From the NCBI RefSeq assembly GCF_035084215.1, contig NC_090352.1:35650001-35714000 (forward strand): DNA of 64,000 nt, read 5' to 3'. Each line of letters starts with the position of its first letter. The stretch's first letter is position 1. Shown in pieces: positions 12,652 to 37,547 of the stretch. A program made the translations under genes and the position numbers. This DNA comes from Heptranchias perlo (taxonomy: Eukaryota). The notes beneath the pieces were generated by a model. It made no database searches, was not told the DNA's origin, and was given only the letters and a program-made list of their open reading frames with translations.

Positions 12652-12800
12652 ATGCCCAGGCTCAATCAGCGCCACAGGAAGTGGAAGATCATGAGAAGAC
12701 GGCAAGCAATAGAAAAGGCCCAGAACGATAAGCGACGTCTGCTAGCAAAAAATAAACAGAATGTCTGTAAGACAAAGCCAACTACTCCCGAAACACCAGG
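12652..12800 (+). CDS. PRR11: Proline-rich protein 11, coding exon 1 (MPRLNQRHRKWK...TPETPG)
   Basis: Acceptor TTCTACAG at 12649, ATG at 12652, donor GTAAGC at 12801. Basic N-terminus resembles human MPKFKQRRRKLK. Confidence 0.88.
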
Positions 12801-13249
12801 GTAAGCATAATTTAGAAGCCATGTTGTAAATGAACAAAATTTGTTTCCTTTCTTCTTGCCTCCCATCCCAAAAAAATGTGTTGAACTGCTTTATTAGAAT
12901 TTTTTTAAATCTTTCCAATTGATTTCAGGTGTCCTTTATGAGCTGGTAGCTTTTTAAACAATTTCTTATTTGTTTTTCCTTTATTTTTTCTCCCTTGCCC
13001 CCCTCAATCCTCATCCCAAAGTAGGCTTTCTGTCAGTCACTGCCCATCCTGTTGAGTGTCAATGTTGACATTTAGCTCTTGCTCCCAACACTGCTGCCAA
13101 TTGCAATGGCCCTCCCAGTGCCTTGATTGGGATAAGCTAACACAGCACAGACCAAGGATTGAACTTGGGACCTTCCTAATCTGTGTGGCTCTAATACTTG
13201 TAGATCACTATTAACTAGTTTAGGTTGTCTGTTACATGGTTGTTGGAGG

Positions 13250-13600
13250 AACTTGAAGATAATCTAGGCTGACAGTTCAGTGCTGTACTGAGGGATTACT
13301 ACACTGTTGGATGAGACATTAAACCGATCCTCATCTGTCCTCTCGGGTGGATGTTAAAGACCCCATGGCACTATTTGTAGAAGAGCAGGAAAGTTCTCCT
13401 GGTGTCCTGGCTGATGTTTGTCCCTTAATCAACATCATTAAAAATAGATTATCTGGTCACTTATCTAATTGCTGTTTCTGGGATCTTGCTGTGTGCCAAT
13501 TGGCTGCTATGTTTCCTACATTACAACAGTGACTACAATCAAATGTACTTCATTGGTTGTGAAACACTTTGAGACATCCTGAGCACTACAGAATAGCAAA
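13250..13600 (+). mobile_element. DeuSINE/SacSINE1-like SINE
   Basis: CAGTGCTGTACTGAGGG...GATCCCATGGCACTATT-type core, repeated many times in the window. Confidence 0.7.
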
Positions 13601-13774
13601 TTCACTCTTTCTAAATTTAACTAAATTCTTCTGACTGTATACAGCATTTCACAGGATATGCCTACTACTACTCGATACAAATAAGTTATTTGACATTAAT
13701 GTTTGTTCCCACTTTATGGCTAGTTTGTATGATGCATGTAGTTCACTTACATTTCTTTTTCGTTTTAAATCCAG

Positions 13775-13928
13775 GAAGAAGTACACACTAATGTCTAAAA
13801 GCAATTCCTTCCCGCATGAGCCAGTTCCTGTCAGGCTCATTTCTTTAGTGAATGTGAAGAACATGCTGAATCCTCTTAAGGCTGTGGTTTCCTCCATGTA
13901 CTGCTGGTGGCTGAGCAGCATTAGGCAG
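13775..13928 (+). CDS. PRR11: PRR11 coding exon 2 (KKYTLM...SMYCWWLSSIRQ)
   Basis: AG/GT bounded and phase-compatible (2 to 0). Resembles human SIYSWCQNCITQ. Confidence 0.85.
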
Positions 13929-14144
13929 GTATAAATGCAAATCATATCTTCTTTAATTCATATAGTACAGGTTATCTTTATTTTCCACAGCCAGTTAACT
14001 ATGGTTCTGTAATTATCTTCTGCCCAACAGAATTGTATGAGTTGACTATAATTCTCTACTTCAACAATTTAAAAAGGATTTTTTTATTTCCAGTTTCCAT
14101 TTTAGAACAGTTTGGCCAATTTTTATTTTGTATTCTGGTAAATT

Positions 14145-14383
14145 ACCAGTAAATTGGAATTTGAGGAAATATTTCTTGCCAATTGAATAATAGCCTGCTG
14201 ACACTCACTGTTGAGGCTCACAACAGCTACTTGAGGGAGGTACCCAATGGGACTCAGACCAAACCAGTAAATTGGAATTTGAGGAAATATTTCTTGCCAA
14301 TTTACTGGTTTGGTCTGAGTCCCCTTGGGTACCTCCCTCAAGTAGCTGTTGTGAGCCTCAACAGTGAGTGTCAGCAGGCTATT
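14145..14383. repeat. 87-bp inverted repeat overlapping a 40-bp direct duplication
   Basis: 14189-14275 versus 14297-14383 is an inverted repeat with 1 mismatch. 14145-14184 is identical to 14263-14302. Confidence 0.95.
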
Positions 14384-15690
14384 TGACTGTGGGGGCTGAA
14401 TGTGCTAAAGCCCACAACTTCACAAAATTGTTCTCATGCTCCAGGTTTAAGATCTGCCTACTCCTTCTCAACTTGGGCCCTGTTCAGTCCCCATGGCGTG
14501 CTTGCCCGGACCCTTGCTTCTATCAAGGCCTTCTGGCTTCTATCATTCATGTATTTCAGCAGTTCATATATAAGCCAGTACCAAATCCACTGTACATGAT
14601 CCAGGGTAAAAGTCCCTCCAAGGCTTGATCCTGACACCATGCCTTTCCCTCCCCTCCCATACCCAAACCCCAACTGCCAGCCCAAAGTTCCAAATCCCCA
14701 GTTTCTTTTAAATGTGCAGGTTACACACCTCTCAAACAGCTTCTCCTCAGATCCCTACCTCCAAGTAGGTATATTTTGGATCTTGTATTGTCTGGCCTTT
14801 TAAAAGTTCAGTAACAGCATATGAAATGCACATTGACACAGTGGAAAACATACAGCAAAGAGTAGAAGTAGAGATTTATAGAACGTGTTTTGGGGGGGAG
14901 GGTGGTAGATGAGAGAAAGAGGCTTTGAGTTAAGTGGGCACAGAGACAAGTGAACACACAAAGTATTATGGTGTTGGTGAGAACAGAGGTTGTTACAGGA
15001 AGAGATCAATCTTTATTTTTATCCATGAGTAACATCTTGGGAGATCAGCTGGTCTTGTGGGTAAATTTGTGAGTGAGGCATACCTGTCTTCAAAATAACT
15101 TTTTTGGTGGGTTGAATGGAGTGCAGCCAAGTTCCTCCCCCTGCAGCTCACTTGGCTTAGACTGAATCTACTCTTTCACCAAAGAGGAATGTAATTTGTT
15201 TTTTTATATATAAACTTACAAACCAGTGATGGCAAGAAAAAAAAACCTTTTTATGTTGCCTCTTCTCTCCTCCCTCTTCGTTTTCTTCCACCCTCTCCTT
15301 ATCAACATTTTGACTTCTGCTAGAATAAGGTTCTACAGGATTTGGGTGCCTTGGAAACCTTGCCCAGGTGATCATCCTTCAGCCCAGTGAATGTTGGCAG
15401 GCTGGTAAATTGTGTAGGCATCACCGCCAAACCCAATCCTGTTCTCACTTGGCATTGACGCACATGTATTTTCTAGCATGGGTTGATGGATTCTGATCAA
15501 GAACAGAAATCCTGGCCGCTTGTTTCTTTTCCTTCCCTTGTCTTATCTCCCTTCCCAATTATTGTGACAGTGAACCCAGTTGTATTGCCCTTACTACCAT
15601 CCAGGTGCAATCAGTTAATTCAGTACAGTCTGAGAATCAAACCCAGGACCTTTTTGATCTGTGGCTCAGCTACATGCTGCCTTTATCAAA

Positions 15691-15896
15691 TGATGTGGAG
15701 ATGCCGGTGATGGACTGGGGTTGACAATTGTAAACAATTTTACAACACCAAGTTATAGTCCAGCAATTTTATTTTAAATTCACAAGCTTTCGGAGGCTTC
15801 CCCCTTCGTCAGGTGAAGGGGGAAGCCTCCGAAAGCTTGTGAATTTAAAATAAAATTGCTGGACTATAACTTGGTGTTGTAAAATTGTTTACAATT
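15691..15896. mobile_element. Palindromic Penelope pseudo-LTR mini-insertion with a 12-bp flanking duplication
   Basis: Perfect 82-bp arms at 15726-15807 and 15815-15896. TTTATCAAATGA at 15682-15693 and 15895-15906. Nearly identical to the ends of the element at 54.2-57.2 kb. Confidence 0.92.
15779..15817 (-). ncRNA. Minimal type I hammerhead ribozyme motif
   Basis: UUCAC-CUGACGA-AGGGGGAAGCCUCC-GAAA-GC-UU-GUGAA: intact core, helix II, palindromic helix III and a 5-bp helix I. Confidence 0.8.
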
Positions 15897-15984
15897 TATC
15901 AAATGAGTCAGAAGAGGGAGAATTAGAAAAATGACAATCCAATCTCGTTGCTTTGCTGATGATTTGCTTCTTCCATGTTTACAG

Positions 15985-16116
15985 GGCTTAGAAGTAGTGA
16001 AGGACACTCTATATCCTTCTCGTGTTTACTTGAGGGAGCTGAATGCACTACGGCAACATATTGAGATACTTGAGATGAAGCTAACACAATTGCGAGAAAT
16101 CTTCAATGTAAACCTG
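15985..16116 (+). CDS. PRR11: PRR11 coding exon 3 (GLEVVKDTLYPSR...LREIFN[VNL]); alternative in-frame donor after 16107
   Basis: Matches human SLEVLKDTIFPSR and its coiled-coil segment. Acceptor TTTACAG. Confidence 0.9.
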
Positions 16117-16769
16117 GTAAATAGATGACCTCTATCAGAAAATAGTGTCTGTTAACAGATGATGCCAAGTTAAGTGAGAAAGCAAGGTTCTCCGAGGAAT
16201 AGGAGAATGTTTTTATTTACCTGCAACGACTTGGCAAAGTGGGTAGATGAATTGCAAATTAAATTTGAGTACCAAGAAATACAACTAAAGGATACCAGTT
16301 GAAAAATAGCTAAAAGATGAATTAGTGCGATCACTAGTTGTATTCTGTTCAGTTGTGGTATCTGCGCTTACGAAAAGATGTAGAGGCAGTAGAAAGAATC
16401 TGGAGGATGACAAACCAAACTATGAAGAGGGGTTAATGAGTTGAATCTATTGTAACGGGAGGGGAGAAAGACTTTTGAGAGACTCTGATCCACGTCTTAG
16501 GAAATGGATATGGTGAAAGTACTTTGTACAAAGCGAGAATAAGTGAACCAGACGACTGACTCGGCTACATGCTTAACTTATCCATCCTTAATCACTGATT
16601 TCTGGAATAGATGGCCACCTAGTGGAGTGCATACTAACTTGGTCGATTTGAAAGTGTACCTGTTGAGGTTATCTAATTTGCAGTGAAGAGAATCATTTTG
16701 CCATTGAAATGTCCTTTTACTTTTGAAATAAATGTTCTGCATTATTGGTTTGTACATGTTAGATAATTG

Positions 16770-17500
16770 GCAAACGAACCAAAGGTGACATGAGGAAAAA
16801 CTTTTTTTACGCAGTGAGTGGTTGGGATCTGGAATGCACTGGCCGAGGGAGTGATAGAGGCAGATTCAATCATGGCCTTCAAAAGGGAACCGGATAATGA
16901 AAAAATGTGCAGGGCTAGGGCAGGGGAGTAGGACTAACTGGATTGCTCGTGCATAGAGCTGGCGCGGACTCGATGGGCCGAATGGCCTCCTTCTGATCTG
17001 TAACCTTTCTATGATATGACCACCTTGACAGAGATGGGGTTATTAGATACACTCAACATGGCTTCTGGAAAATACGGTCATGACTCCCCAACCTGGTTGA
17101 ATTTTTTGAGGTAGTTACTAGTTCGGTAGATATAGATACTCTGGCTGACACTGTATACCTTCACTTTCAAAAATCTTTGACAAGGTGCCACACAATAGGC
17201 TACGTATTAAGATAGTCCTGTGGAATTAATGGACAGATTTTGGGTTGGACAAGGAATTGATTGCATTCTCATATGCAGATGTTTGTTATTAATAGCATTA
17301 GTTCTGCATGGGAACCAATTACTAGAGGATTCTCACAGGGATTGGTGTTAGGGCCACTGGGGAACTGTCTGTAAACTTGCGGATTATGCAAAGATTTGTG
17401 CGGGTGTTAAGACTTTTAGATGAGAAAAATAGATTACGAGAAATGGGGGAATGCCCTCTGGACCCCAGTAGATGTAACTTAATACAGATAATTGTAGTGT
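16770..17500 (+). mobile_element. CR1-like LINE fragments (a 3' end at 16770-17015 plus an old RT fragment)
   Basis: TTTTTACGCAGTGAGTGGTTGGGATCTGGAATGCACT and TTTGACAAGGTGCCACAC (FDKVPH). Confidence 0.7.
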
Positions 17501-17892
17501 TATGCTCGTGAGCAGGGTTAGTGCCAAGCATGTGTACACCATGCAGGATTGTGAACTTAAGTAAGCGTTGAATCCAAAGTGGTTTTGAGTGCACATCAAT
17601 GAAAAAGTGGCACAATGACTCAGACTGGCAAGCACATTAAATCCCCAAGTTGTGAAATCCCCCTTCTCCTAGACAGTTTGCATGAGTCCTTTATTTTATT
17701 TAGAAATTATCTGCACCTAATATGTAAACTTAATGGGAGTATAATTGCATTCCAATGTGCAAACATAATGGAAGAATCTATTGTATAACACGGTATAGCA
17801 CATCCTTTGTATTTATGTGTTAATGGGAACATCAGTTGGTAGTTTTAAATCTTGTCCACTGTTCCTGAATTATGCCCTTCTATCTTTTACAG

Positions 17893-18132
17893 GAGTCTAA
17901 TAATGCAAAAGCTGCTGAAATATGTTGCTGCCGAAAGTATGTTGACTTCTCCCCAGGCCCCACTAAAATACCAGTATGGCCAGTCCAGCCGATCGTTAGT
18001 CGTGCCATGCTGCTATCACCAGTTGGGGCCCTTCCTCCGCCACCTCCACCTCCTCCACTACCTCCTCCTTCAGTGTTTCTACAGAAGCCTCTACAGATTC
18101 AGCGAAAAGCTAGGAGTGAGAAATCTTTGCAA
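17893..18132 (+). CDS. PRR11: PRR11 coding exon 4 (polyproline tract)
   Basis: ESNN...LPPPPPPPPLPPP...KSLQ. Acceptor TTTTACAG, donor GTGAGT, 240 nt. Confidence 0.9.
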
Positions 18133-18469
18133 GTGAGTGTGTGCCAAGCTGTGGAATTGTTTTGCTATGTTCCAAAATTAGTTGAATAATGTGTAATTTA
18201 AAAAAATATATTGATAAGATTGTAGGACATTTTAATATTTATTTACAATTGTCGAAGTGTTAATTTTGTTTTCAAATAATTCCTCAACACTTGTAAAACT
18301 AATGAGACTTTAGGTTTGTTGACTCTTAATAAAATCCTGGTTTTAGGAAGATGTCAATGTGATCTACATAGCTTTGTAAGTTGGATACTTGAGTCAAATC
18401 GCACATGCAGAATGAGGAGGCAGCCTCGTAGAGGCCTGAACTCAGTCAAATCCATACCTGCAGAGTGCC

Positions 18470-18810
18470 AACTTGGCTCAGTAGTTGGCATTCTTGCCTC
18501 TGGTCATGCATTCAATGCTCAGGACAACCCTTCAGTGCAGTAGCAGAGGGAGTGCTGCTTTGTTAAAGATGTCGTCTTTTGGATGAGATGTTATACTGAG
18601 GCCCTATCCACTTGTAAATGATCCAGTGGCACAATTTGAAGAGCGGGGAGTTCTCATTATGTCCTGGCCAACATTCAGCCCTCAACACCATCACCAAAAG
18701 GTCAGATTAACTATTCAGTCGGCACTTTTGCTGTGTTTAAATTTCAAAACTAACTGGTTGTGAAAAGCTTTGAGATTCTGCAAGACATGAGGTGTTAATT
18801 GCAAATTCTT
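18470..18810 (+). mobile_element. DeuSINE/SacSINE1-like SINE
   Basis: A-box-like TGGCTCAGTAGTTGG head plus the shared core. Confidence 0.65.
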
Positions 18811-19833
18811 CTTTTATGGCAATGCCCAGCCAGTACTGAATTTTCCCTGAAGTACAGGTTCCAGAAAGAGTACAAATTCCTGTAAATTGGTATTCTATCA
18901 AAATCCTGTAACTGGCATCGTCTAGCAGGAAGAAAGGGATTTTGTGGGGAGGAAAATTACAAAGCCTACATATTTCCTTTTTGTTTTAAAAAGAAGTGCC
19001 ATTATAGGGTCTACAGTATTTTAATATTGAAACTGCTTCCTCCCCCTCACACCATCACCAACACTTACCCTGTAGGGATGAAAATGTACAATGTAAGTTT
19101 TCTTTTCTCGCCACAGTAAAGGGAATTAATACGGTGGATCTAATGAGACATCTTGTGCGTAGCCAGAGGCTGAGTGTATAAATTGGGGAAAACGCAAGTT
19201 TATTGGAGCTTCTATTCTGTAATAGACTGCCAAATTCAAGTTGTGTTCCATTCGGTTCTCGATTAGGAGTTGGATCGATCTGTGAAGTGTGAAAAGGAGG
19301 CCATAGCATTTCTCATCAGGGAGTAAGGAGCAAGAAAAATTCAGTGAAGTTTCTCTGAGAATTTAAATGTTGGGCATGTCATTCTCATGTGTATGCTTCT
19401 GTGCAGCAGAATTATCAGGAAATAGCAACCAGGATGAACAGCTGACATTGGGAGACCAACTGGGCATTTTGGGGGATTTGTCCTTACTGTAGCTGTGGGT
19501 GACAAACTACTGTAGACAGTTTTTAGAGGGAAAGTTCTTTCCACCTTCATTCACTTTATCCTGTAAAATTAGGGATGTTTTCCTTATACACCATGACAAT
19601 CTAATGAATGCACTCCTGACTTTCAATGCTGCTCACTTTCACCAGTGCTAAAGTTTACTCCAGCATCGTGTCCAATATTTGCAGTCTAGCCAATAAATGT
19701 CATTCTCTAATTTCTCGATTCTTCATCCGCAACAGCAAAATCTGGGGTATACTCTTAAGAATAGATAATTTCTAAATAGAATAAGGACTGTGAAATGCAG
19801 ATGCTTTATTGATGACTCTTATTGCATTTGCAG

Positions 19834-19932
19834 ATAGTGTCTGAGGAAATTGGTAGACCGCCATCCATAACTATGAAAGATTTGCTTAAAGTAAAATTGA
19901 AGAAGACTGCGGACCGATTCGAAATAACAAAG
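19834..19932 (+). CDS. PRR11: PRR11 coding exon 5a (IVSEEIGRPPSITMKDLLKVKLKKTADRFEITK)
   Basis: TTTGCAG acceptor, AAG|GTTAGT donor, 99 nt. Matches human ITVKDLLTVKLKKT. Confidence 0.85.
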
Positions 19933-20616
19933 GTTAGTTCTACTCATAAGGCTATTTGTTTTATTACTACAGATTGTGCTGTTGTTGATGAACTCGATTC
20001 TTTCCCCTCAGTCTGGTTCAGCAAATTCTGAGCCGAATACACCGTTGCAGTTCAACAATAACTTTATTAGAGTAGAACTTGGAACTTGGTCTGCAGCATT
20101 GATCTGGACTCCCGATAGAGTCCCACCTATGCTGGCAGAACAAGACAAAGAACATACAGAAAATACACACGTTTATACAGCTCAATAGGGGTTGGAACAT
20201 TGTTAGCATGAGTGTCAATACCAATCATAAGCCTGGCATAGGTTGGCCATGAGGGGTTACCTCACTACAGGCCAATCATGGACAATACAGTTAGCTGATC
20301 ACGCCGCAGTGACAGACATAGATGAATGTCTCTTCATCTCCTAGCTTGGAATGTTTTCCCCCAATCATCCCACATCCTTATCAGCCAACCTGTAATGGTC
20401 TCTGGCTTCACTAAGCTCATTATTTCTATTGATCACCCAGCTGCAAACTCCCTACACCAAACTCCCTACTCCCTAATGGCAACATGTCAATGATGAGCAT
20501 AAGCAGACCCCAACATCTAACGAGTTACTCATCTCACTATTAGCCTTGAAGGGGCCCATTGTTCTAACCTAGGCAGCTTCTAATTAACCCTTGCTTGTCC
20601 TATTACTACTTTTCTA

Positions 20617-20711
20617 CTTTGCCACTTAGACATTCTCATTCTCATTCTTTGCCACTTAGACATTCTCATTCTTTGCCACTTAGACATTCTCATTCGTTAG
20701 ACATTCTCATT
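20617..20711 (+). repeat. Tandem repeat, 24-bp unit CTTTGCCACTTAGACATTCTCATT (three full copies plus partials)
   Basis: Read directly from the sequence. Confidence 0.95.
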
Positions 20712-20736
20712 GTAATGTTTTGTGTGGCATCCCTAG

Positions 20737-20829
20737 ACTGAGAGGATGGATGGGCCACTGTCTGTGACGGTAAACGATTTGCTTGAAGTGAAACTGAGGA
20801 AGACCCAGAACAAATTAGAAAAACCAAAG
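20737..20829 (+). CDS. PRR11: PRR11 coding exon 5b, paralogue of 5a (TERMDGPLSVTVNDLLEVKLRKTQNKLEKPK)
   Basis: CCCTAG acceptor, AAG|GTGAGC donor, 93 nt, open frame. Matches human DGPMQITVKDLLTVKLKKTQ. Confidence 0.82.
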
Positions 20830-20959
20830 GTGAGCACTGTACAAATCTTTCATTTTAAGTAAATCTTTCTGGAATTCTCAAACGAACACCTGAAGGAATG
20901 GGATAGTTACCACAAGTAGTTATTCCTGTTGCTGGGATGCTCATACCAAACTAATACAC

Positions 20960-21940
20960 ACAAAATAAAAACAGAAAATGCTGGAAAAGCTGAGCAAGTG
21001 AGGCAGCATCTGTGGAGAAAGAAACAGTTAACATTTCAGATCAAAGACCTTTCATCAGACCTGGAAGATGTTGGAGTTAAAGTTTTTAGGCAAGTACAAA
21101 GCCGGGGAAAGGGGAGGGAGGGAAGGAAAGAACAAAAGGGAAGATCTGTGATGAGGTAGAGGGCAGAAGTGATTAAATGACAAAAGGGATGATGGCGCAA
21201 AGCAAGAAGGGTGGTAATGGGCCAAGTTAAGAAACAAAAGATCGGTCTAGGGTAGCTGTAAATGGCGCCAACAGAATCATAACCAGCAGCTGCAGTCCAA
21301 TAACTTTTTTAAAAATTAAAAATGGGAGCAGTGATTATGGTCTGAAGTTATTGAAATCAATGAGTCCTGAAGGTTGTAAAGCGCCTAAACGAAAGAGGAG
21401 GTGATGTTCCTCAAGCTTACGTTGAGCTTCATTGGAACAGTGTAAGAGGTCGAGGTCAGAGTGGCAGTGGGACGGGGAATTAAAATGGCAAGCGACCGGC
21501 AGGTCAGGGTCACGCTTGCGAACAGAGTGGAGGTGTTCAGCAAAGCGATCACCCAATCTGCGTTTGGTCTCCCCAGTGTGAAGGAGACTGCATTGTGAGC
21601 AGTGAATACAGTACATTAAATTTAAAGAAGTACAAATAAACTGCTGTTTCACCTAGGAGGAGCGTTTGGGGTCCTGGACAGTGGGAAGGGAGGAGGTGGA
21701 GGGGCACCCATCTCCTGCGCTCGCATGAGAAGGTGCCGTGGGGAGGAGAGCGGGTGTTGGGGGTGATGGAAGAGTGGACCAGTGTGTCAGGGAGGGAACG
21801 GTCCCTTCGGAATGCTGAAAGGGGAGGGGAAGATGTGTTTGGCAGTGGGATCACACTGGAGGTGGTGGAGGCGGAAATGGTGGAGGATGATACGTTGAAT
21901 GTGGAGGCTGGTAAAGCGCCCATTGTGGTTCTGGGAGGGA
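20960..21940 (-). mobile_element. Penelope-like element of a second, older family: GIY-YIG fragment and pLTR with a hammerhead motif at 21026-21062
   Basis: Peptide LMYCIHCSQCSLLHTGETKRRLGDRFAEHL...PVACHFN. Minus strand reads CTGATGA-AAGGTCTTTGATCT-GAAA-TGTT. Confidence 0.85.
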
Positions 21941-23086
21941 ATGGAATGAACATAAAATGTTGGTTCCAAACTATAGGAATTTTAAACGACAAATATAGAA
22001 TCATAGAGTACAGAACGAGGCCATTTGACCCATTGTGCCGGCTCTCTGAAAGAGCTACCAATTAGTCCACTCTCCTGCTCTTTCCCCATAGCCCTGTACA
22101 TTTTTCCTTTTTAAGCAGAGATCCAATTCCCTTTTGATAGTTACTATGAACAAGTAATGGCTGTATTTATTTCTTAGTTAGCCAATCTTGAAAGGAATAT
22201 TACTTAATTTGACAGGAAGACTTTTCACTTCAGAGTTGGTACTGTAGTTTTTTTTAAACTGCATGCAGTTTGCAGAAGTTATGTAATAAGCTACTGATTT
22301 TACTAATCCATAAATGTGACTGGAAATTAAGCTCTGTGAACATTAGTGTACAAAAATGAATTTCCTTTATCTGCTGAGGTGCTAATCTTGTTTAAAATAA
22401 ACTGGTTAACTTCTCTGTTAGGGTAGCAGACAAAGGATTATGAATTTGTTACATATCTATGCTAATATTCAAAGAGCTTAGCTGCAAGGTAGTGGTGTCC
22501 AGCTATGTTGGCTGTCTTCCATTTAAATTGTGATCAGAAAATACATTTAACATGGAACTAATTAACATGCAAATTAATGTAAGCATCCAATCTACCCACT
22601 GAACCATATAAGAAAAAACACCAGTGTTGAAAAGATTTTGTGCGGTACTGTTGTCAGGTTTGTGTTAGACAAAGCTGATATTTTTCTGTCTTCCCACCCC
22701 ATTATTACATTGCTACCATTCCACGCACCATTTACTGAAAGGGTAGGTAAAGGACACTTCACTGCCAGTTCTATTTCCCTTGCTAATTTTCTTCTTTTCC
22801 GTGCTGATAACTCCTTGCTGGGGTATAGTTTGCCAAGTGCCACCTCACCCAAATGGCCCACTAATGAATTAAGTCCTTCCTTCTCTTTCCCTGAATGATG
22901 AGCTGTCTATAAGGGGATTTGTGGGTGTAAAACCCATACTTACCAGCCCTTGGCAACTGGGAGCAGCAGTAAGTTGTGTGATTGAGACCATTCTTTTTTT
23001 TTGCATCCGTTGTCTTCAGCAGGTGATGGGGATGTAGTCATTTTAAGCTATTGTCTGAAGTACTGGGATTTATTTTTTGCTCATAG

Positions 23087-23193
23087 ATGGATACACCAGG
23101 AAAGAAAAGATCTCCTTTAGTCACAATCTCTGATCTACAAGGCTTTAACTTGCAGGCAAAAGCTAACCAACTGCAGAAACCAGCAACAAAGAT
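23087..23193 (+). CDS. PRR11: PRR11 coding exon 6 (MDTPGKKRSPLVTISDLQ...)
   Basis: Matches human RNPLVTVSDLQ. Acceptor TCATAG, donor GTAAGC, phase 0 to 2. Confidence 0.88.
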
Positions 23194-23404
23194 GTAAGCA
23201 CATGAGGTTCTGTAGTGACTGATTTTGTGAACTCTAAACAGCACAATAAAATAAATGTCACAGAATGATTTTAATTGTAACCAGTGTAATCATTTTATCT
23301 GCAATGTGTTTTTTTTAAGCTGGTGAGAATTTTTGTTTTAATTCAAATGTCAAAATTCACAAGATTTATGCTATTAAATATGGAAAGTATAGATTGTTAA
23401 AAGA

Positions 23405-23815
23405 AAGACTTGCATTTATATAGCGCCGTTCATGACATCCCAAAATGCTTTACAACCAATGAAGTATTTTTGAAGTGTAATCACTGTTGTAATGTAGGAA
23501 ACGAGGCAGCTAATCTGAGCACTGCAAATCCCACAAACAATCTATTAATGACCAGATAATCTGTTTTAGGGATGTTGGTTGAGGGATAAATACTGGCCAG
23601 ACACCAGGAGAACATCCCTGTTCTTCTTCCAATAGTGTATGGGAACTTTTACAGCCACCTGAGAGGGCAGACGTCGGTTTAATGTCTCATCTGAAAGACA
23701 GCACCTCTGACAGTGCAACACTCTCTCAGTACTGCACTGGAATGTCAACCTAGATTATGTGCTCAAGTCCCTGGAATGGGACTTGAACCTGCAACCATCT
23801 GACTCTGATGAGAAT
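23405..23815 (-). mobile_element. DeuSINE/SacSINE1-like SINE, near full length
   Basis: B-box-like GGTTCAAGTCCC on the minus strand, the shared core and an L2-like tail (TATATAAATGCAAGTCTTT). Confidence 0.75.
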
Positions 23816-24321
23816 CCTGACCAGCCCTTTGAACTAACAATTCCTCAAAACACAATTGTTTTATTTATATTTTGAGGATATCGTTAGACCTGAATAGAAC
23901 AATATTGTTTTGAGGAATTGTTAATTCTCCGGAGCCCCTTTCAGCGAGGAGTTTATTGAGCCAAGCCTTTATGTGGCTTACTTGAACAATGACCATGCTT
24001 TTACCCAAAGTTCTAATGAAAATCCACTTCCATTTTCAAAATAAATAATTTTGAACACTTCTATGTGATCTTTTTGCCAGAAAGACACTCTTTTCTTAGC
24101 TTTGAACTTTTCCACAGGTGCTGCTGATTACGATTCAGATTGACTGAGCAGAGCCAGAGGTGAAGCAGATTATTGGTTCAAATCTCCCCAAAAGAATGTA
24201 CAGTGCCCTTTTTTAAAAAAAAATAGGTGTCTAATTATGGCTTCTGCATAATATAGAGCTTGTGGTATCAAACTGAAGAAATGGCTAATTATAACTTGAA
24301 TTTTTGGATTTTTTTTTTTAG

Positions 24322-24384
24322 AATCACTCTAAATAGCCCTGTACTGGATCTTCGGAAACGTCTAAAGAAAGTAGATATAGAAAG
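24322..24384 (+). CDS. PRR11: PRR11 coding exon 7 (ITLNSPVLDLRKRLKKVDIER)
   Basis: Matches human MDLRKLLRKVDVER. Poly-T-AG acceptor, GTAATA donor. Confidence 0.9.
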
Positions 24385-25465
24385 GTAATATTAGCTAATA
24401 AAGGTCATTATTCATATATTTAAATATTAATCTTTTTAACCAGCTATAATGATCCATATCCATTTCAATCTGTTATATCTAACTTATTTAGAAAAGTGAG
24501 GAAGTGATTTCTGTTGCAAATTTGAGCCTCAGCAGAAGTTTGTTGCAATGATCTAGTAATGTAGTGTACTATTCTGGAGCATAATAAGCAGTTGATTCAT
24601 AGCTAGAAAATGTTCTTCACTTTCTCCTCTCCTTGTCTCTGAAGACATTGACTCCAGCTCAGGGTACAGTTCCAGTTGAACTGGTTGTCATCTAGTATCT
24701 GGTCCAAGATACTTTTCTTCAAATGATCCTAGACAGTGCACATTGGCAAGCTACTGGACTACAGGTGGACATCTGACCAGTCTGATTCCGTCTTTCCCCC
24801 AAATTCCACACTTGCACTTTCTAGTAGGGGTGATTGGATAATTATCGAGGGAAACTTGCTTAATTCTCTCTCTTCTCTCTCTCTTTCCTCTCCCCACACC
24901 CACCAAACAAACTGTAGCACTCTACTGCTACTCTTGCTTGAATCAACTTGCTCAGCATTCTAGGAAACAAGCATAGGAGCTTCTGGTGTCTCAGGCTTAC
25001 CTATACACTACCTTTACTACCTGAGCCATTGGGAAGCTTTTCACTTTTTAAAAAATTTCTTGCAGTTATTTTCATCCCTCTTAACAAATTTCCTTTCTAC
25101 TCCCTCCCTCCTCTTTCTCTCTTTTCTCCGCCCCCCCCACCCCCAACCAAAGAGACAGCAAGCTGCCAATCCAATTGATCTTGGCAGGATCGAGGTTTAA
25201 ATTGAAGAAGGTAAATAACCTACATCCACAGCACTTTAGTGGCTGAACCAAGAACAAACATTAAAATGCTGTGACTGTATACTGCTATACACAATTCATC
25301 ATTTACAAAACATTTATTAAAACCGCTGTTCAAAACTTCAGATGTAATTAGAACTTTGCTCTGTAAAACAGCTGATGCCAAAAATACTTTTGTTGAACAA
25401 TGGAAGCTTGTGTTTTGAGAAAGTATTGAATACGATTGCTTACCCTATAAAGTATTTGGTTGCAG

Positions 25466-25559
25466 GAGCCCTGGTGGAACACCTCTCTATAAGGAGAACA
25501 GAGATACCGGGTCAGGACTGACGCCAGTTATGACGCAAGCGCTAAGACGGAAATTTGAG
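25466..25559 (+). CDS. PRR11: PRR11 coding exon 8 ([31 protein letters not shown]; contains a KEN box)
   Basis: Close match to human [32 protein letters not shown]. Confidence 0.95.
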
Positions 25560-26038
25560 GTAATTTAGGTGAAGCAGTTCATTTACTTTGTAAGGTTCCT
25601 CCTCCAACCCCATGGATAAGTCACATTGCAACATTTCTTTTGTCCATTGCCAAATAATCTGTTATTTTCCCCCCAGAATACTAGAAAAGTGTATTTCCTT
25701 TTCCCTTCCAACTTTATCCTGAAAGCATTGAATCCTTGTTGGGGTATAGTTTCATGGTTGCTCTCTGGTTCCTTTTCCACACTTCATGCATAAGGCTAGA
25801 TGATGAGTGTCGATGGGCTATTCTTCTGTCAGGGCATCACAGATGAGCCAAATACTTTCCTCTCCCAACATCTACATCTGCACTCTTAAACTAGGTGTCG
25901 CTGGTTAGTGACCAGCAATGGGAGCCTCTTTTGTCCACCAACCCAGGGCTGGGATCAGCTAACTCAGCAGTCTGGGCTTAAACCTGGGACATGTCTAGTC
26001 TGTGTGGCTCAGCTGTTCAATGTCTTGTCCAGCTCAGC

Positions 26039-27064
26039 CAGAGGTTCCCAAACTGGGAGATATGATGGGGTTACCAAGAGGACATAAGGAGGACACTAGC
26101 TGTAACTCACTAACTGGTAATGCCTGCAATATGTATTTTCTCCATGAGTGGTGCTGTAGCACTGCCTGCATCACACTGATTGATTCCTGACTCTGCTCTC
26201 CAAACTCATGCATTTCCTGCAAAAAGCTGTTTGCCTTCTGATCTGTACCTCTGCAATATAAACTTCCTTTTGGAAATGCTTATGAGCCCTGGGGTTCCCG
26301 CTGCCATAGATAGATAAATAAATAGCAGCAAGTCGGTACCCCCATTCCCCCGCAACTCTGCTTCAAAATCACCTGCCGAGCTTTTTTTTTATATCCCTAC
26401 ATCGAAGTCCTCATGAGCCCTTGGGTTCCCGTGTGTTTACAGGGAGCAGATAAATAGGCAAAAAAAAAAATTTGTCTCTGCCTCAATAAGTACTTTCTTG
26501 CCCAGTCTTCTGCATCTTTCTAGAAAGTTTGTGTTGCTGCTTGCTTGGCATCGTCTTAAATTGAGAAATAAATTAATAATGACATCGGCACTCGGGTCTG
26601 GCTGTTTGTACAAAAAAAAATTAAACTTGTATTTTACCTCCTCCAAGGCAACCGAAGGATTCATTACTCCCTGTTCCAACCCCCCCCCCCCCCCCCCCCA
26701 AACAACCTGACCACAGACCCATCCTAGTTCCGTCTGCAGAGGATTGTTCATCCTGCCCCTGGCTCGCATCCCCATCCAGAAGAGAGGAGAGGCCTGCAAT
26801 TTTCCATTCATTGTTGTTACTTACACTTGCATTGTAGCTGGGTAATTTCTCAGATCTGCTCACGCGTTACTTCCACCATGCTTTTGAGGAAGCAGGAGAT
26901 TATCCGAGGAATTTCCTGGCCAGAGGTTCTAATGATATGATTGGACTTCATATTAAAACCCAAAAGTGTAAGGGAGCAGATTTAAAACTGCTGCGGTATT
27001 CTAAGTTACGAGTTATATCTACACTGACATTGATGCATGCAAAAATAATGTTTGGGAACCTCTG
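26039..27064. mobile_element. Probable non-autonomous hAT/Charlie-like DNA transposon
   Basis: Perfect 15-bp terminal inverted repeats CAGAGGTTCCCAAAC (26039-26053 and 27050-27064). No clear 8-bp target-site duplication remains. Confidence 0.6.
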
Positions 27065-27186
27065 ACCTAAATTAAAAGAAACCAATATTTGTTTGATTTG
27101 TGAAAGGTAAAACTGATGCCTGTGTAAAATAGATGCTTTGGAATCCGTTAGCAGTTTGAGTTAACAATCTTTCTGCTCTGTTTCAG

Positions 27187-27258
27187 ATGGCTCGTCCCAA
27201 AAGTCCTCCTTGCTGCCGCTCTCCGCACACCAGCTTTGATGAGCAAAATACATACTAA
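27187..27258 (+). CDS. PRR11: PRR11 last coding exon (MARPKSPPCCRSPHTSFDEQNTY*)
   Basis: TTTCAG acceptor. Matches the human C-terminus LAHPRSP...SSFDEQN. TAA at 27256-27258. Confidence 0.92.
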   Translation: MARPKSPPCCRSPHTSFDEQNTY

Positions 27259-36040: not shown

Positions 36041-37547
36041 AGGGCACTGAGGGTTGCGTTGGCGACGGACGGCGAGGAAGCGGCCTGGAAGGACGAAGAG
36101 ATGTGCGTGGTGGGGATATTCGGCAAGACGTCGGAGCTAAGCGCCGAGAAATACGCCATCGTCAACACCCTGTGCGACAAGCCGGTCTTCCCTTTGTATC
36201 CGAGGGCTGGCGACGACCATCGTCACCAGGGCAACAACAACTTGCTGCAGTGCTACTACAACCAGGACAGCAAAGTCCTCTACCTGCTCCTCACCGCCGT
36301 CTGCGACAACCACCAGCTGCTCCAGGCCTGCAGGGCCTTGGCTGACGACGTTTCCCACGCCGAAGCCCACGAGTTCTGGAAGGGGGAGGAGAAGCTCCAC
36401 TGCATCCATCTGCTCTACCTCTTCTCCGTTTCCCACATCCTCCTGCTGGTCCATCCCACCTGCTCCTTCGACATCACTTACGACCGTCTCTTTCGAGCCC
36501 TGGACAGCCTCAGGCAAAAGGTCCTCCCCTACCTAAAGAACGCGATTAAGGATTGCCCGGTAGGGAAGGAATGGCGATTGAACTGTAGACCCTGCCCTCC
36601 TAGACTCCTCTTCATTTTCCAGCTCAATGGGGCGTTGAAGGTCGAGCCTAAGTGTCTAGACCCCTCCAATTTGGATAAACCCAAGAAGCACTCTCCTAAA
36701 AGGAGGCTCCAACATGCCTTGGAGGATCAGATCTATAGGATTTTCAGGAAGAGCAGAGTGCTGACCAACCAGAGCATTAATTGTTTGTTTACCGTCCCTG
36801 CCAACCAGGCATTTGTTTACGTGGTGGCTGGGCAGGGGGACGACCCAATCAGTATGCTGATAGGGCAGCTGAAAAATACCTGTGCCATCAGGGAGCATGA
36901 ATCCCTCCCAGTTTCTGGGTCACGGCGTTATCAGATGATAAGGCATGTCCGCCAGCCGTCCTTCATACTGGAAAGCAGTCTCAACAGCTCCAGCGGCCAG
37001 CTGGTGGACTGCACCTTGAAGGAGTTTCTGTGGCAACACGTGGAGCTGGTTCTGACCAAAAAGGGATTCGAGGATAGTGTAGGGAGGAACCCACAGCCGT
37101 CACACTTTGAACTTCCTGCCTATAAAAATTGGCTGGCTGTGGCCTCAAAACTCTATGACGTGATGATAAGCGGGAAGGATGAAGACCTTGGATTTCTTTC
37201 TGGAGATCTTTCGTCCAAGATACAGGGACAGCTGAAAGGGCTTGAAGGGTTTTTGGATGCGGATAATAAGTTTTCAGAAAACCGCTGCCAAAAGGCTCTG
37301 CCGCTGGCTCACAGTGCCTACCAGTCCAATCTGCCGCACCATTACACCACGACTGTCCATAAGAACCAGTTGGCACAGGCCCTACGCGTCTACAGTCAGC
37401 ATGCGCGCGGACCAGCCTTCCAGAAGTATGCCATGCAGCTGCATGAGGACTGCTATAAGTTCTGGAGTAACGGGCATCAGTTGTGCGAAGAGAGGAGTTT
37501 AACGGATCAACACTGTGTTCACAAATTCCATCTACTGCCCAAGCCAG
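36029..37547 (+). CDS. SMG8: Nonsense-mediated decay factor SMG8, exon 1
   Basis: CVVGIFGK, CRPCPPRLLF, KKHSPKRRLQHALEDQIYRIFRKSR and FSENRCQKALPLA. Strong Kozak ATG at 36029, donor G|GTGAGC. Confidence 0.97.

What the first reader, a model, noticed from the sequence alone, without database searches (positions are those of the whole stretch)
19834..20829. Tandemly duplicated PRR11 exon adds a second DLLxVKL(K/R)KT motif
Seen: two exons of 99 and 93 nt, 804 nt apart, both phase 0-0 with canonical splice sites and open frames. They encode SITMKDLLKVKLKKT and SVTVNDLLEVKLRKT. The DNA has diverged while the motif is kept, which suggests both are under selection. As I recall human PRR11, it has only one such segment (ITVKDLLTVKLKKT). 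Inference: an old exon duplication, used additively or mutually exclusively, that changes the motif copy number. I know of no description of it.
Basis: partly seen in the sequence, partly recalled or inferred. Interest (0 to 1): 0.72.

Follow-up and report, generated by a model that had tools for sequence, protein, structure and literature searches.

The report
Sharks' extra actin-binding PRR11 exon
Sharks and rays carry an old second copy of a short exon in the cancer-linked gene PRR11 and splice both copies in; the encoded motif is predicted to grip actin monomers like a WH2 motif, which would explain how PRR11 drives actin assembly.

Summary
The two exons belong to PRR11 (RefSeq Heptranchias perlo protein, 100% identical). 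RNA contigs from one sample splice both in tandem, so use is additive, not mutually exclusive. Both copies occur in 17 of 18 elasmobranch species; five database isoforms lack only the second. The RefSeq models already contain both exons. The motif is a family repeat present twice, about 33 aa apart, in 102 of 102 bony-vertebrate proteins, lamprey and most invertebrate relatives. Elasmobranchs have three, the last one eroded. A complex model docks the second exon's peptide on actin at the WH2/thymosin site (0.81 vs 0.00 best control). This may be recall of solved WH2 complexes, and Pfam WH2 is not met. PRR11 also appears to be a distant paralog of MTFR1/2, with a shared motif order and intron. 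Chimaera status is unknown. No earlier scan note or searched paper describes any of this. Verdict: ordinary exon duplication that exposes a likely unrecognised tandem actin-binding repeat.

The parts
12652..12800 (+). PRR11 coding exon 1 (ATG; basic N-terminal helix)
   Evidence: exact match to P0001 aa 1-50
13775..13928 (+). PRR11 coding exon 2
   Evidence: exact match to P0001 aa 51-101
15985..16116 (+). PRR11 coding exon 3 (long predicted helix, likely coiled coil)
   Evidence: aa 102-145; in RNA contig X1; helix in model
17893..18132 (+). PRR11 coding exon 4 (polyproline tract)
   Evidence: aa 146-225; RNA contig
19834..19932 (+). Exon 5a, repeat A1 (motif at aa 237); in every elasmobranch isoform seen; flanks more derived
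20617..20695 (+). 24-nt intronic tandem repeat (about 2.8 copies) ending 41 nt before the 5b acceptor; role unknown
20737..20829 (+). Exon 5b, repeat A2 (motif at aa 268); absent from 5 database isoforms; flanks closer to the bony-vertebrate exon; 2 codons shorter here than in other sharks
23087..23193 (+). Exon 6, repeat B (aa 301), eroded in elasmobranchs
24322..24384 (+). Exon 7 (ends in a split Arg codon, phase 2, before SPGG)
25466..25559 (+). Exon 8 (SPGGTP and C-terminal helix; the best-conserved block)
27187..27258 (+). Last coding exon to stop
   Evidence: aa 378-400; RNA contig

Best explanation
Exons 5a and 5b are an old tandem duplicate, shared by sharks and rays and spliced in together, of one unit of PRR11's tandem repeat, and each unit is predicted to bind an actin monomer in the manner of a WH2/beta-thymosin motif. 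Shown: the gene reads long helix, polyproline, repeats about 33 aa apart, then SPGGTP and a C-terminal helix. Most relatives have two repeats and elasmobranchs three. The last elasmobranch repeat has lost its V/I and basic residues. Predicted: a short helix inserts in actin's barbed-end cleft and the L-R-K-T segment contacts actin residues 23-25. Inferred: tandem repeats next to a polyproline tract would gather actin monomers, fitting PRR11's reported Arp2/3-dependent actin assembly. The duplicate likely kept two intact units while repeat B decayed. Skipping 5b would leave one intact unit, so splicing would tune the number of actin sites.
For: Splicing: (one sample, two runs). Distribution: 17 of 18 elasmobranch species and 34 of 39 named proteins have both exons. 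Exactly two repeats in 102 of 102 bony-vertebrate proteins, and two in 50 of 67 distant representatives; lamprey, echinoderms, hemichordate, tunicate, cnidarian, Daphnia, Balamuthia and Paulinella have two. Tree: 5a, 5b and bony A are set apart from B at 100/100. Decay of B: position 8 is F in 18 of 18 elasmobranchs against V/I/M/L in 102 of 102 bony; position 11 is Q in 14 of 18 against R/K in 102 of 102. Actin model: score 0.81 in three runs, best of 3 controls 0.00; contact agreement at least 69%, partner pLDDT at least 62. The mark was reached by 51 of 78 solved and 2 of 108 mismatched microbial pairs, and by 71 of 105 solved and 2 of 126 unrelated eukaryote pairs. L278 contacts actin 23-25, 341 and 345; L273 and V270 contact 143-148. 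Each repeat has a short predicted helix. Hydrophobic spacing (+3, +8) equals that of this genome's thymosins. PRR11 is reported to drive F-actin via Arp2/3, with its N and C termini needed and proline region 2 dispensable for filament assembly (PMC8720695, passages and Discussion).
Against: Pfam WH2 does not match the exons and a genome scan with PF02205 does not list the locus. Profile-profile likeness to this genome's WH2 motifs is weak (probability 51%, 13 columns). The linker is one residue shorter than in 8 of the 11 measurable WH2s and lacks the glycine. The complex pass may be memory of solved WH2-actin structures. Peptides and disordered chains were not in the tool's calibration, my alignments were not used, only 5b was tested, and the actin was a stand-in 96% identical to the shark's. 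Skipping of 5b rests on database gene models whose support I could not see; the RNA contigs here show only inclusion. Compensation is a correlation from one evolutionary event. In stingray-lineage species 5a has also drifted. No dN/dS was possible.
Confidence: 0.64

Rival explanations
1. The duplication is real, but the repeat binds something other than G-actin (filament sides, Arp2/3 subunits, tubulin, membranes or a regulatory enzyme), and the WH2-like docking is a model artefact.
For: No Pfam WH2 match; weak profile likeness; MTFR paralogs carry a related motif, and none of the 25 listed MTFR papers contains 'WH2'; the tool warns of passes from memory.
Against: Three runs converge on the canonical site, with controls at 0.00; spacing matches thymosin; PRR11 has a reported actin phenotype.
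Confidence: 0.24
2. Repeat number is loosely constrained: the extra exon was fixed by drift and is redundant, and the decay of repeat B and skipping of 5b are side effects without regulatory meaning.
For: Copy number varies elsewhere: three in Asterias and in an unnamed protein, one detected in 15 of 67 representatives. Repeat B is also weak in two amphibians without a duplicate.
Against: Both cores are conserved across sharks and rays. 5b-less models recur in two shark orders and a ray. This rival is compatible with actin binding and differs only on why the copy was kept.
Confidence: 0.3
3. Three repeats are ancestral to jawed vertebrates and bony vertebrates lost exon 5a.
For: 5a sits on a long branch and the introns retain no homology; no chimaera sequence was retrieved.
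Against: Lamprey and most invertebrate deuterostomes have two; one gain is simpler than gain plus loss.
Confidence: 0.08
4. The two exons are mutually exclusive alternatives.
For: Similar size, same phase, adjacent.
Against: Direct 5a-5b joint in RNA; 34 of 39 proteins carry both and none carries 5b alone.
Confidence: 0.02

Closest known systems
Human PRR11 (PMC9775115, PMC8720695; passages read)
   Same: Same gene; described as NLS, two proline-rich regions and a zinc finger, ten exons; recruits Arp2/3 and promotes F-actin.
   Different: The passages read mention no repeat or WH2 ('WH2' and 'motif' 0 occurrences in PMC8720695; 'motif' 0 in PMC9775115). Primates (gibbon P0105) have repeats A and B; elasmobranchs have A1, A2 and an eroded B.
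WH2 / beta-thymosin actin-binding motifs (PF02205, PF01290); tandem-WH2 proteins such as N-WASP, WHAMM/JMY, and, recalled, Spire and Cobl
   Same: Short helix then L-[KR]-[KR]-[TV], after a polyproline tract, in tandem; predicted to use the same actin surface.
   Different: Fails both Pfam models; helix shorter, starts at a conserved S/T, no glycine in the linker; no VCA central or acidic-tryptophan motif.
MTFR1/MTFR2/MTFR1L family (PF05308)
   Same: One shark MTFR gene shows the order coil-like helix, polyproline, LKD..VKLR, RSPGGTP, AL.RKF, with a phase-2 intron in the same Arg codon (vs 7); sub-threshold Pfam hits in 6 of 18 PRR11 proteins.
   Different: One motif copy rather than two or three; mitochondrial outer-membrane fission regulators; hits are below the curated cut-off and partly driven by polyproline.
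Alternatively spliced WH2 exons in Aplysia WASP (PMC3298513, passages)
   Same: Duplicated exons encoding part of an actin-binding motif.
   Different: Those are mutually exclusive and species-restricted; here additive and lineage-wide.

Membership tests
Tandem exon duplication | Adjacent homologous exons of equal phase with intact splice sites | tested here: met
Tandem exon duplication | Both copies spliced into mRNA | tested here: met
   RNA contig joint, one sample, two runs
Tandem exon duplication | Single copy in outgroups | tested here: met
   102 of 102 bony proteins and lamprey have one A-type repeat; chimaera not retrieved
Mutually exclusive exons | Exactly one of the two per transcript | tested here: not met
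Cassette exon (5b) | Transcripts with and without the exon in one species | tested here: inconclusive
   Both forms are in database models of 4 species; only inclusion seen in RNA here
WH2 / beta-thymosin | Match to PF02205 or PF01290 | tested here: not met
WH2 / beta-thymosin | C-terminal LKKT/V-type motif | tested here: met
   L invariant and K/R at the next position in all 16 species for 5a and 5b; definition from PMC11589041 passages
WH2 / beta-thymosin | N-terminal amphipathic helix ahead of the motif | tested here: inconclusive
   Short 5-7 residue helices predicted at modest confidence; hydrophobic at 0, 2, 5, 8, 10
WH2 / beta-thymosin | Binds the barbed-end cleft of G-actin | tested here: inconclusive
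   Model supports it (0.81 vs 0.00) but does not show it; may be recall
WH2 / beta-thymosin | Measured G-actin binding | not testable with these tools
   needs biochemistry
WASP-family nucleation-promoting factor (VCA) | Central amphipathic motif homologous to NPF C regions | tested here: not met
   PRR11 C-helix profile gave no real match in 12 WH2 loci of this genome (best 4.7, not in a recognisable C region; only 1.5 kb flanks read), against 13.8 for MTFR
WASP-family nucleation-promoting factor (VCA) | Acidic tail with tryptophan | tested here: not met
   128 of 133 vertebrate tails have F[DE][DE], 4 contain any W; 16 of 97 other tails have F[DE][DE]
MTFR family (PF05308) | Score above the curated cut-off | tested here: not met
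   best 21.7-22.1 bits vs 26.3
MTFR family (PF05308) | Shared motif order and intron position indicating common ancestry | tested here: met
   one shark MTFR gene examined at DNA level

The most novel reading that the evidence does not exclude
PRR11 is an unrecognised, pan-eukaryotic tandem actin-monomer-binding protein with a short-linker WH2-like repeat that Pfam misses. Its distant paralogs MTFR1/2 carry one such motif, which would tie mitochondrial fission regulators directly to actin. Elasmobranchs swapped a decaying repeat for a duplicated one and dial the number of intact actin sites between one and two by a conserved cassette exon.
Probability: 0.35. Interest if true: 0.8.

Novelty: new variant of a known kind. 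Interest (0 to 1): 0.56.

Why it matters
PRR11 is an amplified cancer gene reported to drive Arp2/3-dependent actin assembly, and the papers read give no actin-binding element for it. The duplicated exon marks out the functional unit and gives a direct test: mutate two leucines per repeat. Natural one-, two- and three-repeat forms exist for comparison. If the MTFR link holds, the same test applies to mitochondrial fission regulators. The exon duplication by itself is an ordinary event already present in gene models.

Tried and rejected
Mutual exclusivity: rejected. Assembly or segmental artefact: rejected, as the copies are diverged, the introns unrelated, only two genomic hits exist and 17 species share it. 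Chimaera, coelacanth, lungfish and gar: none was named among the listed hits (best 120 of 246 shown), 20 or the 20 representatives looked up, so their state is open. P0289 looked like a candidate but is an unnamed fragment without the repeats. Run X3 gave no contig on the exons at 97%: no evidence either way. No run is on record as RNA; the spliced joint itself shows a transcript. PDB sequence search gave polyproline and coil hits; leiomodin-2 at E 0.005 is not separable from that. The ESM Atlas gave nothing above 0.8. A VCA-type reading failed. The whole-protein model has pTM 0.28, so no fold search was run. dN/dS could not be run: no DNA of other species. The primary PRR11-Arp2/3 paper (J Biol Chem 2020;295:5335) is not held; I saw only its citation and the follow-up's description, and it or its supplements may discuss these residues. 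Literature searches: PRR11+WH2 0 papers; PRR11+shark 3 unrelated (37); PRR11+MTFR1 5 with single mentions, listings only (60). Searches listed no paper joining the topics, but 66, 67, 77 and 78 showed only the top 12-25 of 185-1,944. In one search one bony row (P0030) was mis-windowed; corrected counts are. Earlier scan notes: none on PRR11.

Full report
Observation. Both exons are as described: 99 and 93 nt, AG/GT, phase 0-0, 804 nt apart, each with the motif 22 residues from the exon end. They share 62 of 93 nt and 14 of 31 residues; the introns around them share nothing significant. A search of the whole genome with exon 5a finds only these two places.

Gene and transcript. The upstream exon matches the RefSeq PRR11 protein of Heptranchias perlo at 100% (P0001). 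That protein maps exactly on ten coding exons from 12652 to 27258 and includes both copies. SMG8-family coding sequence lies downstream. Contigs from two runs of one sample join 5a to 5b over the 804-nt GT..AG intron, preceded by exon 4 and followed by exon 6. One contig leaves exactly 456 nt for the five internal exons, which is their sum. Contigs show presence only, so skipping here is neither shown nor excluded.

Distribution. Among 39 named elasmobranch proteins from 18 species, 34 carry both copies, 5 lack only 5b, and none lacks 5a. Seventeen species have the two-copy form: sharks of four orders, skates, an electric ray and stingrays. Four species have both long and short models (Scyliorhinus canicula, two Chiloscyllium, Mobula hypostoma); for Stegostoma only a short model was retrieved. 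These are database predictions whose read support I did not see. The cores are conserved: 7 and 8 of 14 positions are invariant in 16 species, against 1 and 2 of 16 flank positions. The duplication therefore predates the shark-ray split (recalled as roughly 270-300 million years). No chimaera sequence was retrieved.

The motif is a family repeat. A profile built only from non-elasmobranch relatives (shuffled proteins reach 4.1 at the 99th percentile, 11.4 at most in 1,000) finds exactly two repeats in 102 of 102 bony-vertebrate proteins, a set dominated by birds and mammals. It finds two in 50, one in 15 and three in 2 of 67 distant representatives. Named two-repeat relatives include lamprey, echinoderms, a hemichordate, a tunicate, Priapulus, Daphnia, Nematostella, Balamuthia and Paulinella; Asterias has three. 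Spacing is 30-34 residues in 138 of 156 intervals. The flanks of 5b are closer than those of 5a to the bony exon in 15 of 16 species, with one tie and small margins in carpet sharks. The skippable copy is thus the more conservative one.

Decay of repeat B. In elasmobranchs position 8 of B is F in 18 of 18 species, position 10 is F in 7, and position 11 is Q in 14, R in 3 and M in 1. Bony vertebrates keep V/I/M/L, L and R/K in 102 of 102. Sharks and rays therefore hold two intact repeats, like the rest of the family. That the duplicate compensated for B is an inference from a single event, and B is also weak in two amphibians.

What the repeat likely does. It is a short predicted helix followed by V-x-L-[KR]-[KR]. 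WH2 motifs are an N-terminal helix that binds the barbed-end cleft of G-actin plus an LKKT segment (PMC11589041, passages), with a linker of variable length (PMC3298513, passages). The PRR11 spacing equals that of this genome's thymosins and is one residue shorter than most of its WH2s. Against membership: Pfam WH2 does not match and profile likeness is weak (51%). I modelled residues 259-291 with a cytoplasmic-type actin from an unnamed record, 96% identical to the shark's own over the compared part. The score was 0.81 in all three runs and the best control 0.00, with contact agreement at least 69% and partner pLDDT at least 62. The tool's mark was reached by 51 of 78 solved and 2 of 108 mismatched microbial pairs, and by 71 of 105 solved and 2 of 126 unrelated eukaryote pairs; peptides are untested. 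Contacts fall on actin 23-28, 143-148, 168-169 and 341-355, which I recall as the WH2/thymosin site. WH2-actin complexes are solved, so the pass may show likeness rather than binding. Independent support is functional: PRR11 is reported to recruit Arp2/3 and drive F-actin through its N and C termini, with the second proline region dispensable for filament assembly (PMC8720695, passages and Discussion). PRR11 is not a canonical VCA activator: neither a central motif nor an acidic tryptophan was found.

Mechanism, step by step. Shown: duplication, tandem inclusion, conservation, two-repeat norm elsewhere, decay of B. Predicted: WH2-like docking of 5b. Inferred: 5a binds likewise; tandem units beside polyproline collect monomers for filament assembly; skipping 5b halves the intact sites.

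MTFR link. Six of 18 PRR11 proteins hit PF05308 below its cut-off. A shark MTFR gene has the same order of elements through RSPGGTP and AL.RKF. Its phase-2 intron splits the same Arg codon as in PRR11. The PRR11 C-helix profile scores it 13.8, against at most 4.7 in 12 WH2 loci. This points to common ancestry; only one MTFR gene was checked at DNA level.

Novelty. Both exons are in RefSeq models, so the sequence is on record. Searches for PRR11 with WH2, shark, MTFR1 and related terms found no description of the duplication, the repeat or the homology (several showed only top rows, and most subscription journals are not held). The main PRR11-actin paper could not be read. The scan has no earlier PRR11 note. 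The event is of a known kind; its value is that it exposes a testable, probably actin-binding repeat. Interest 0.56.

Noticed in passing
G000:C5:93836571-93846100 (L122, L124) vs window 24322-25559: A shark MTFR-family gene shares motif order and a phase-2 intron in the RSPGG Arg codon with PRR11, suggesting PRR11 and MTFR1/2 are distant paralogs; MTFRs carry one related LKD..VKL motif.
   Followed up: partly
G000:C3:2.16-2.41 Mb and 37.21-37.28 Mb (L001-L012): At least 13 cytoplasmic-type actin matches in two clusters; the 12 fetched each have residues 42-375 in one open exon. Several further single-exon actin-like genes lie on C1, C4, C13, C14, C32, C35 and C1070.
   Followed up: no
window 20617-20695: 24-nt tandem repeat just upstream of the 5b acceptor, whose polypyrimidine tract looks weak by eye; could affect inclusion.
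   Followed up: no
window 20737-20829: Exon 5b is two codons shorter here than in other sharks, giving a 31-residue A1-A2 spacing instead of 33.
   Followed up: partly
P0085, P0158 (Polyodon and an unnamed relative): A 30-residue insertion between repeats A and B doubles the spacing to 63-64 without adding a motif.
   Followed up: no
P0181/P0299 (Asterias), P0233 (unnamed): Independent three-repeat forms of PRR11 outside vertebrates.
   Followed up: partly
window about 36600-37100 and 41412 onward: SMG8 coding sequence downstream on the same strand; one turtle record with PRR11 sequence is named as an SMG8 isoform (P0023), probably a merged gene model.
   Followed up: partly
P0257, P0266, P0277, P0283, P0288, P0292: Longer proteins (one named from the beetle Agrilus) keep the repeats but lack the SPGG block.
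   Followed up: no
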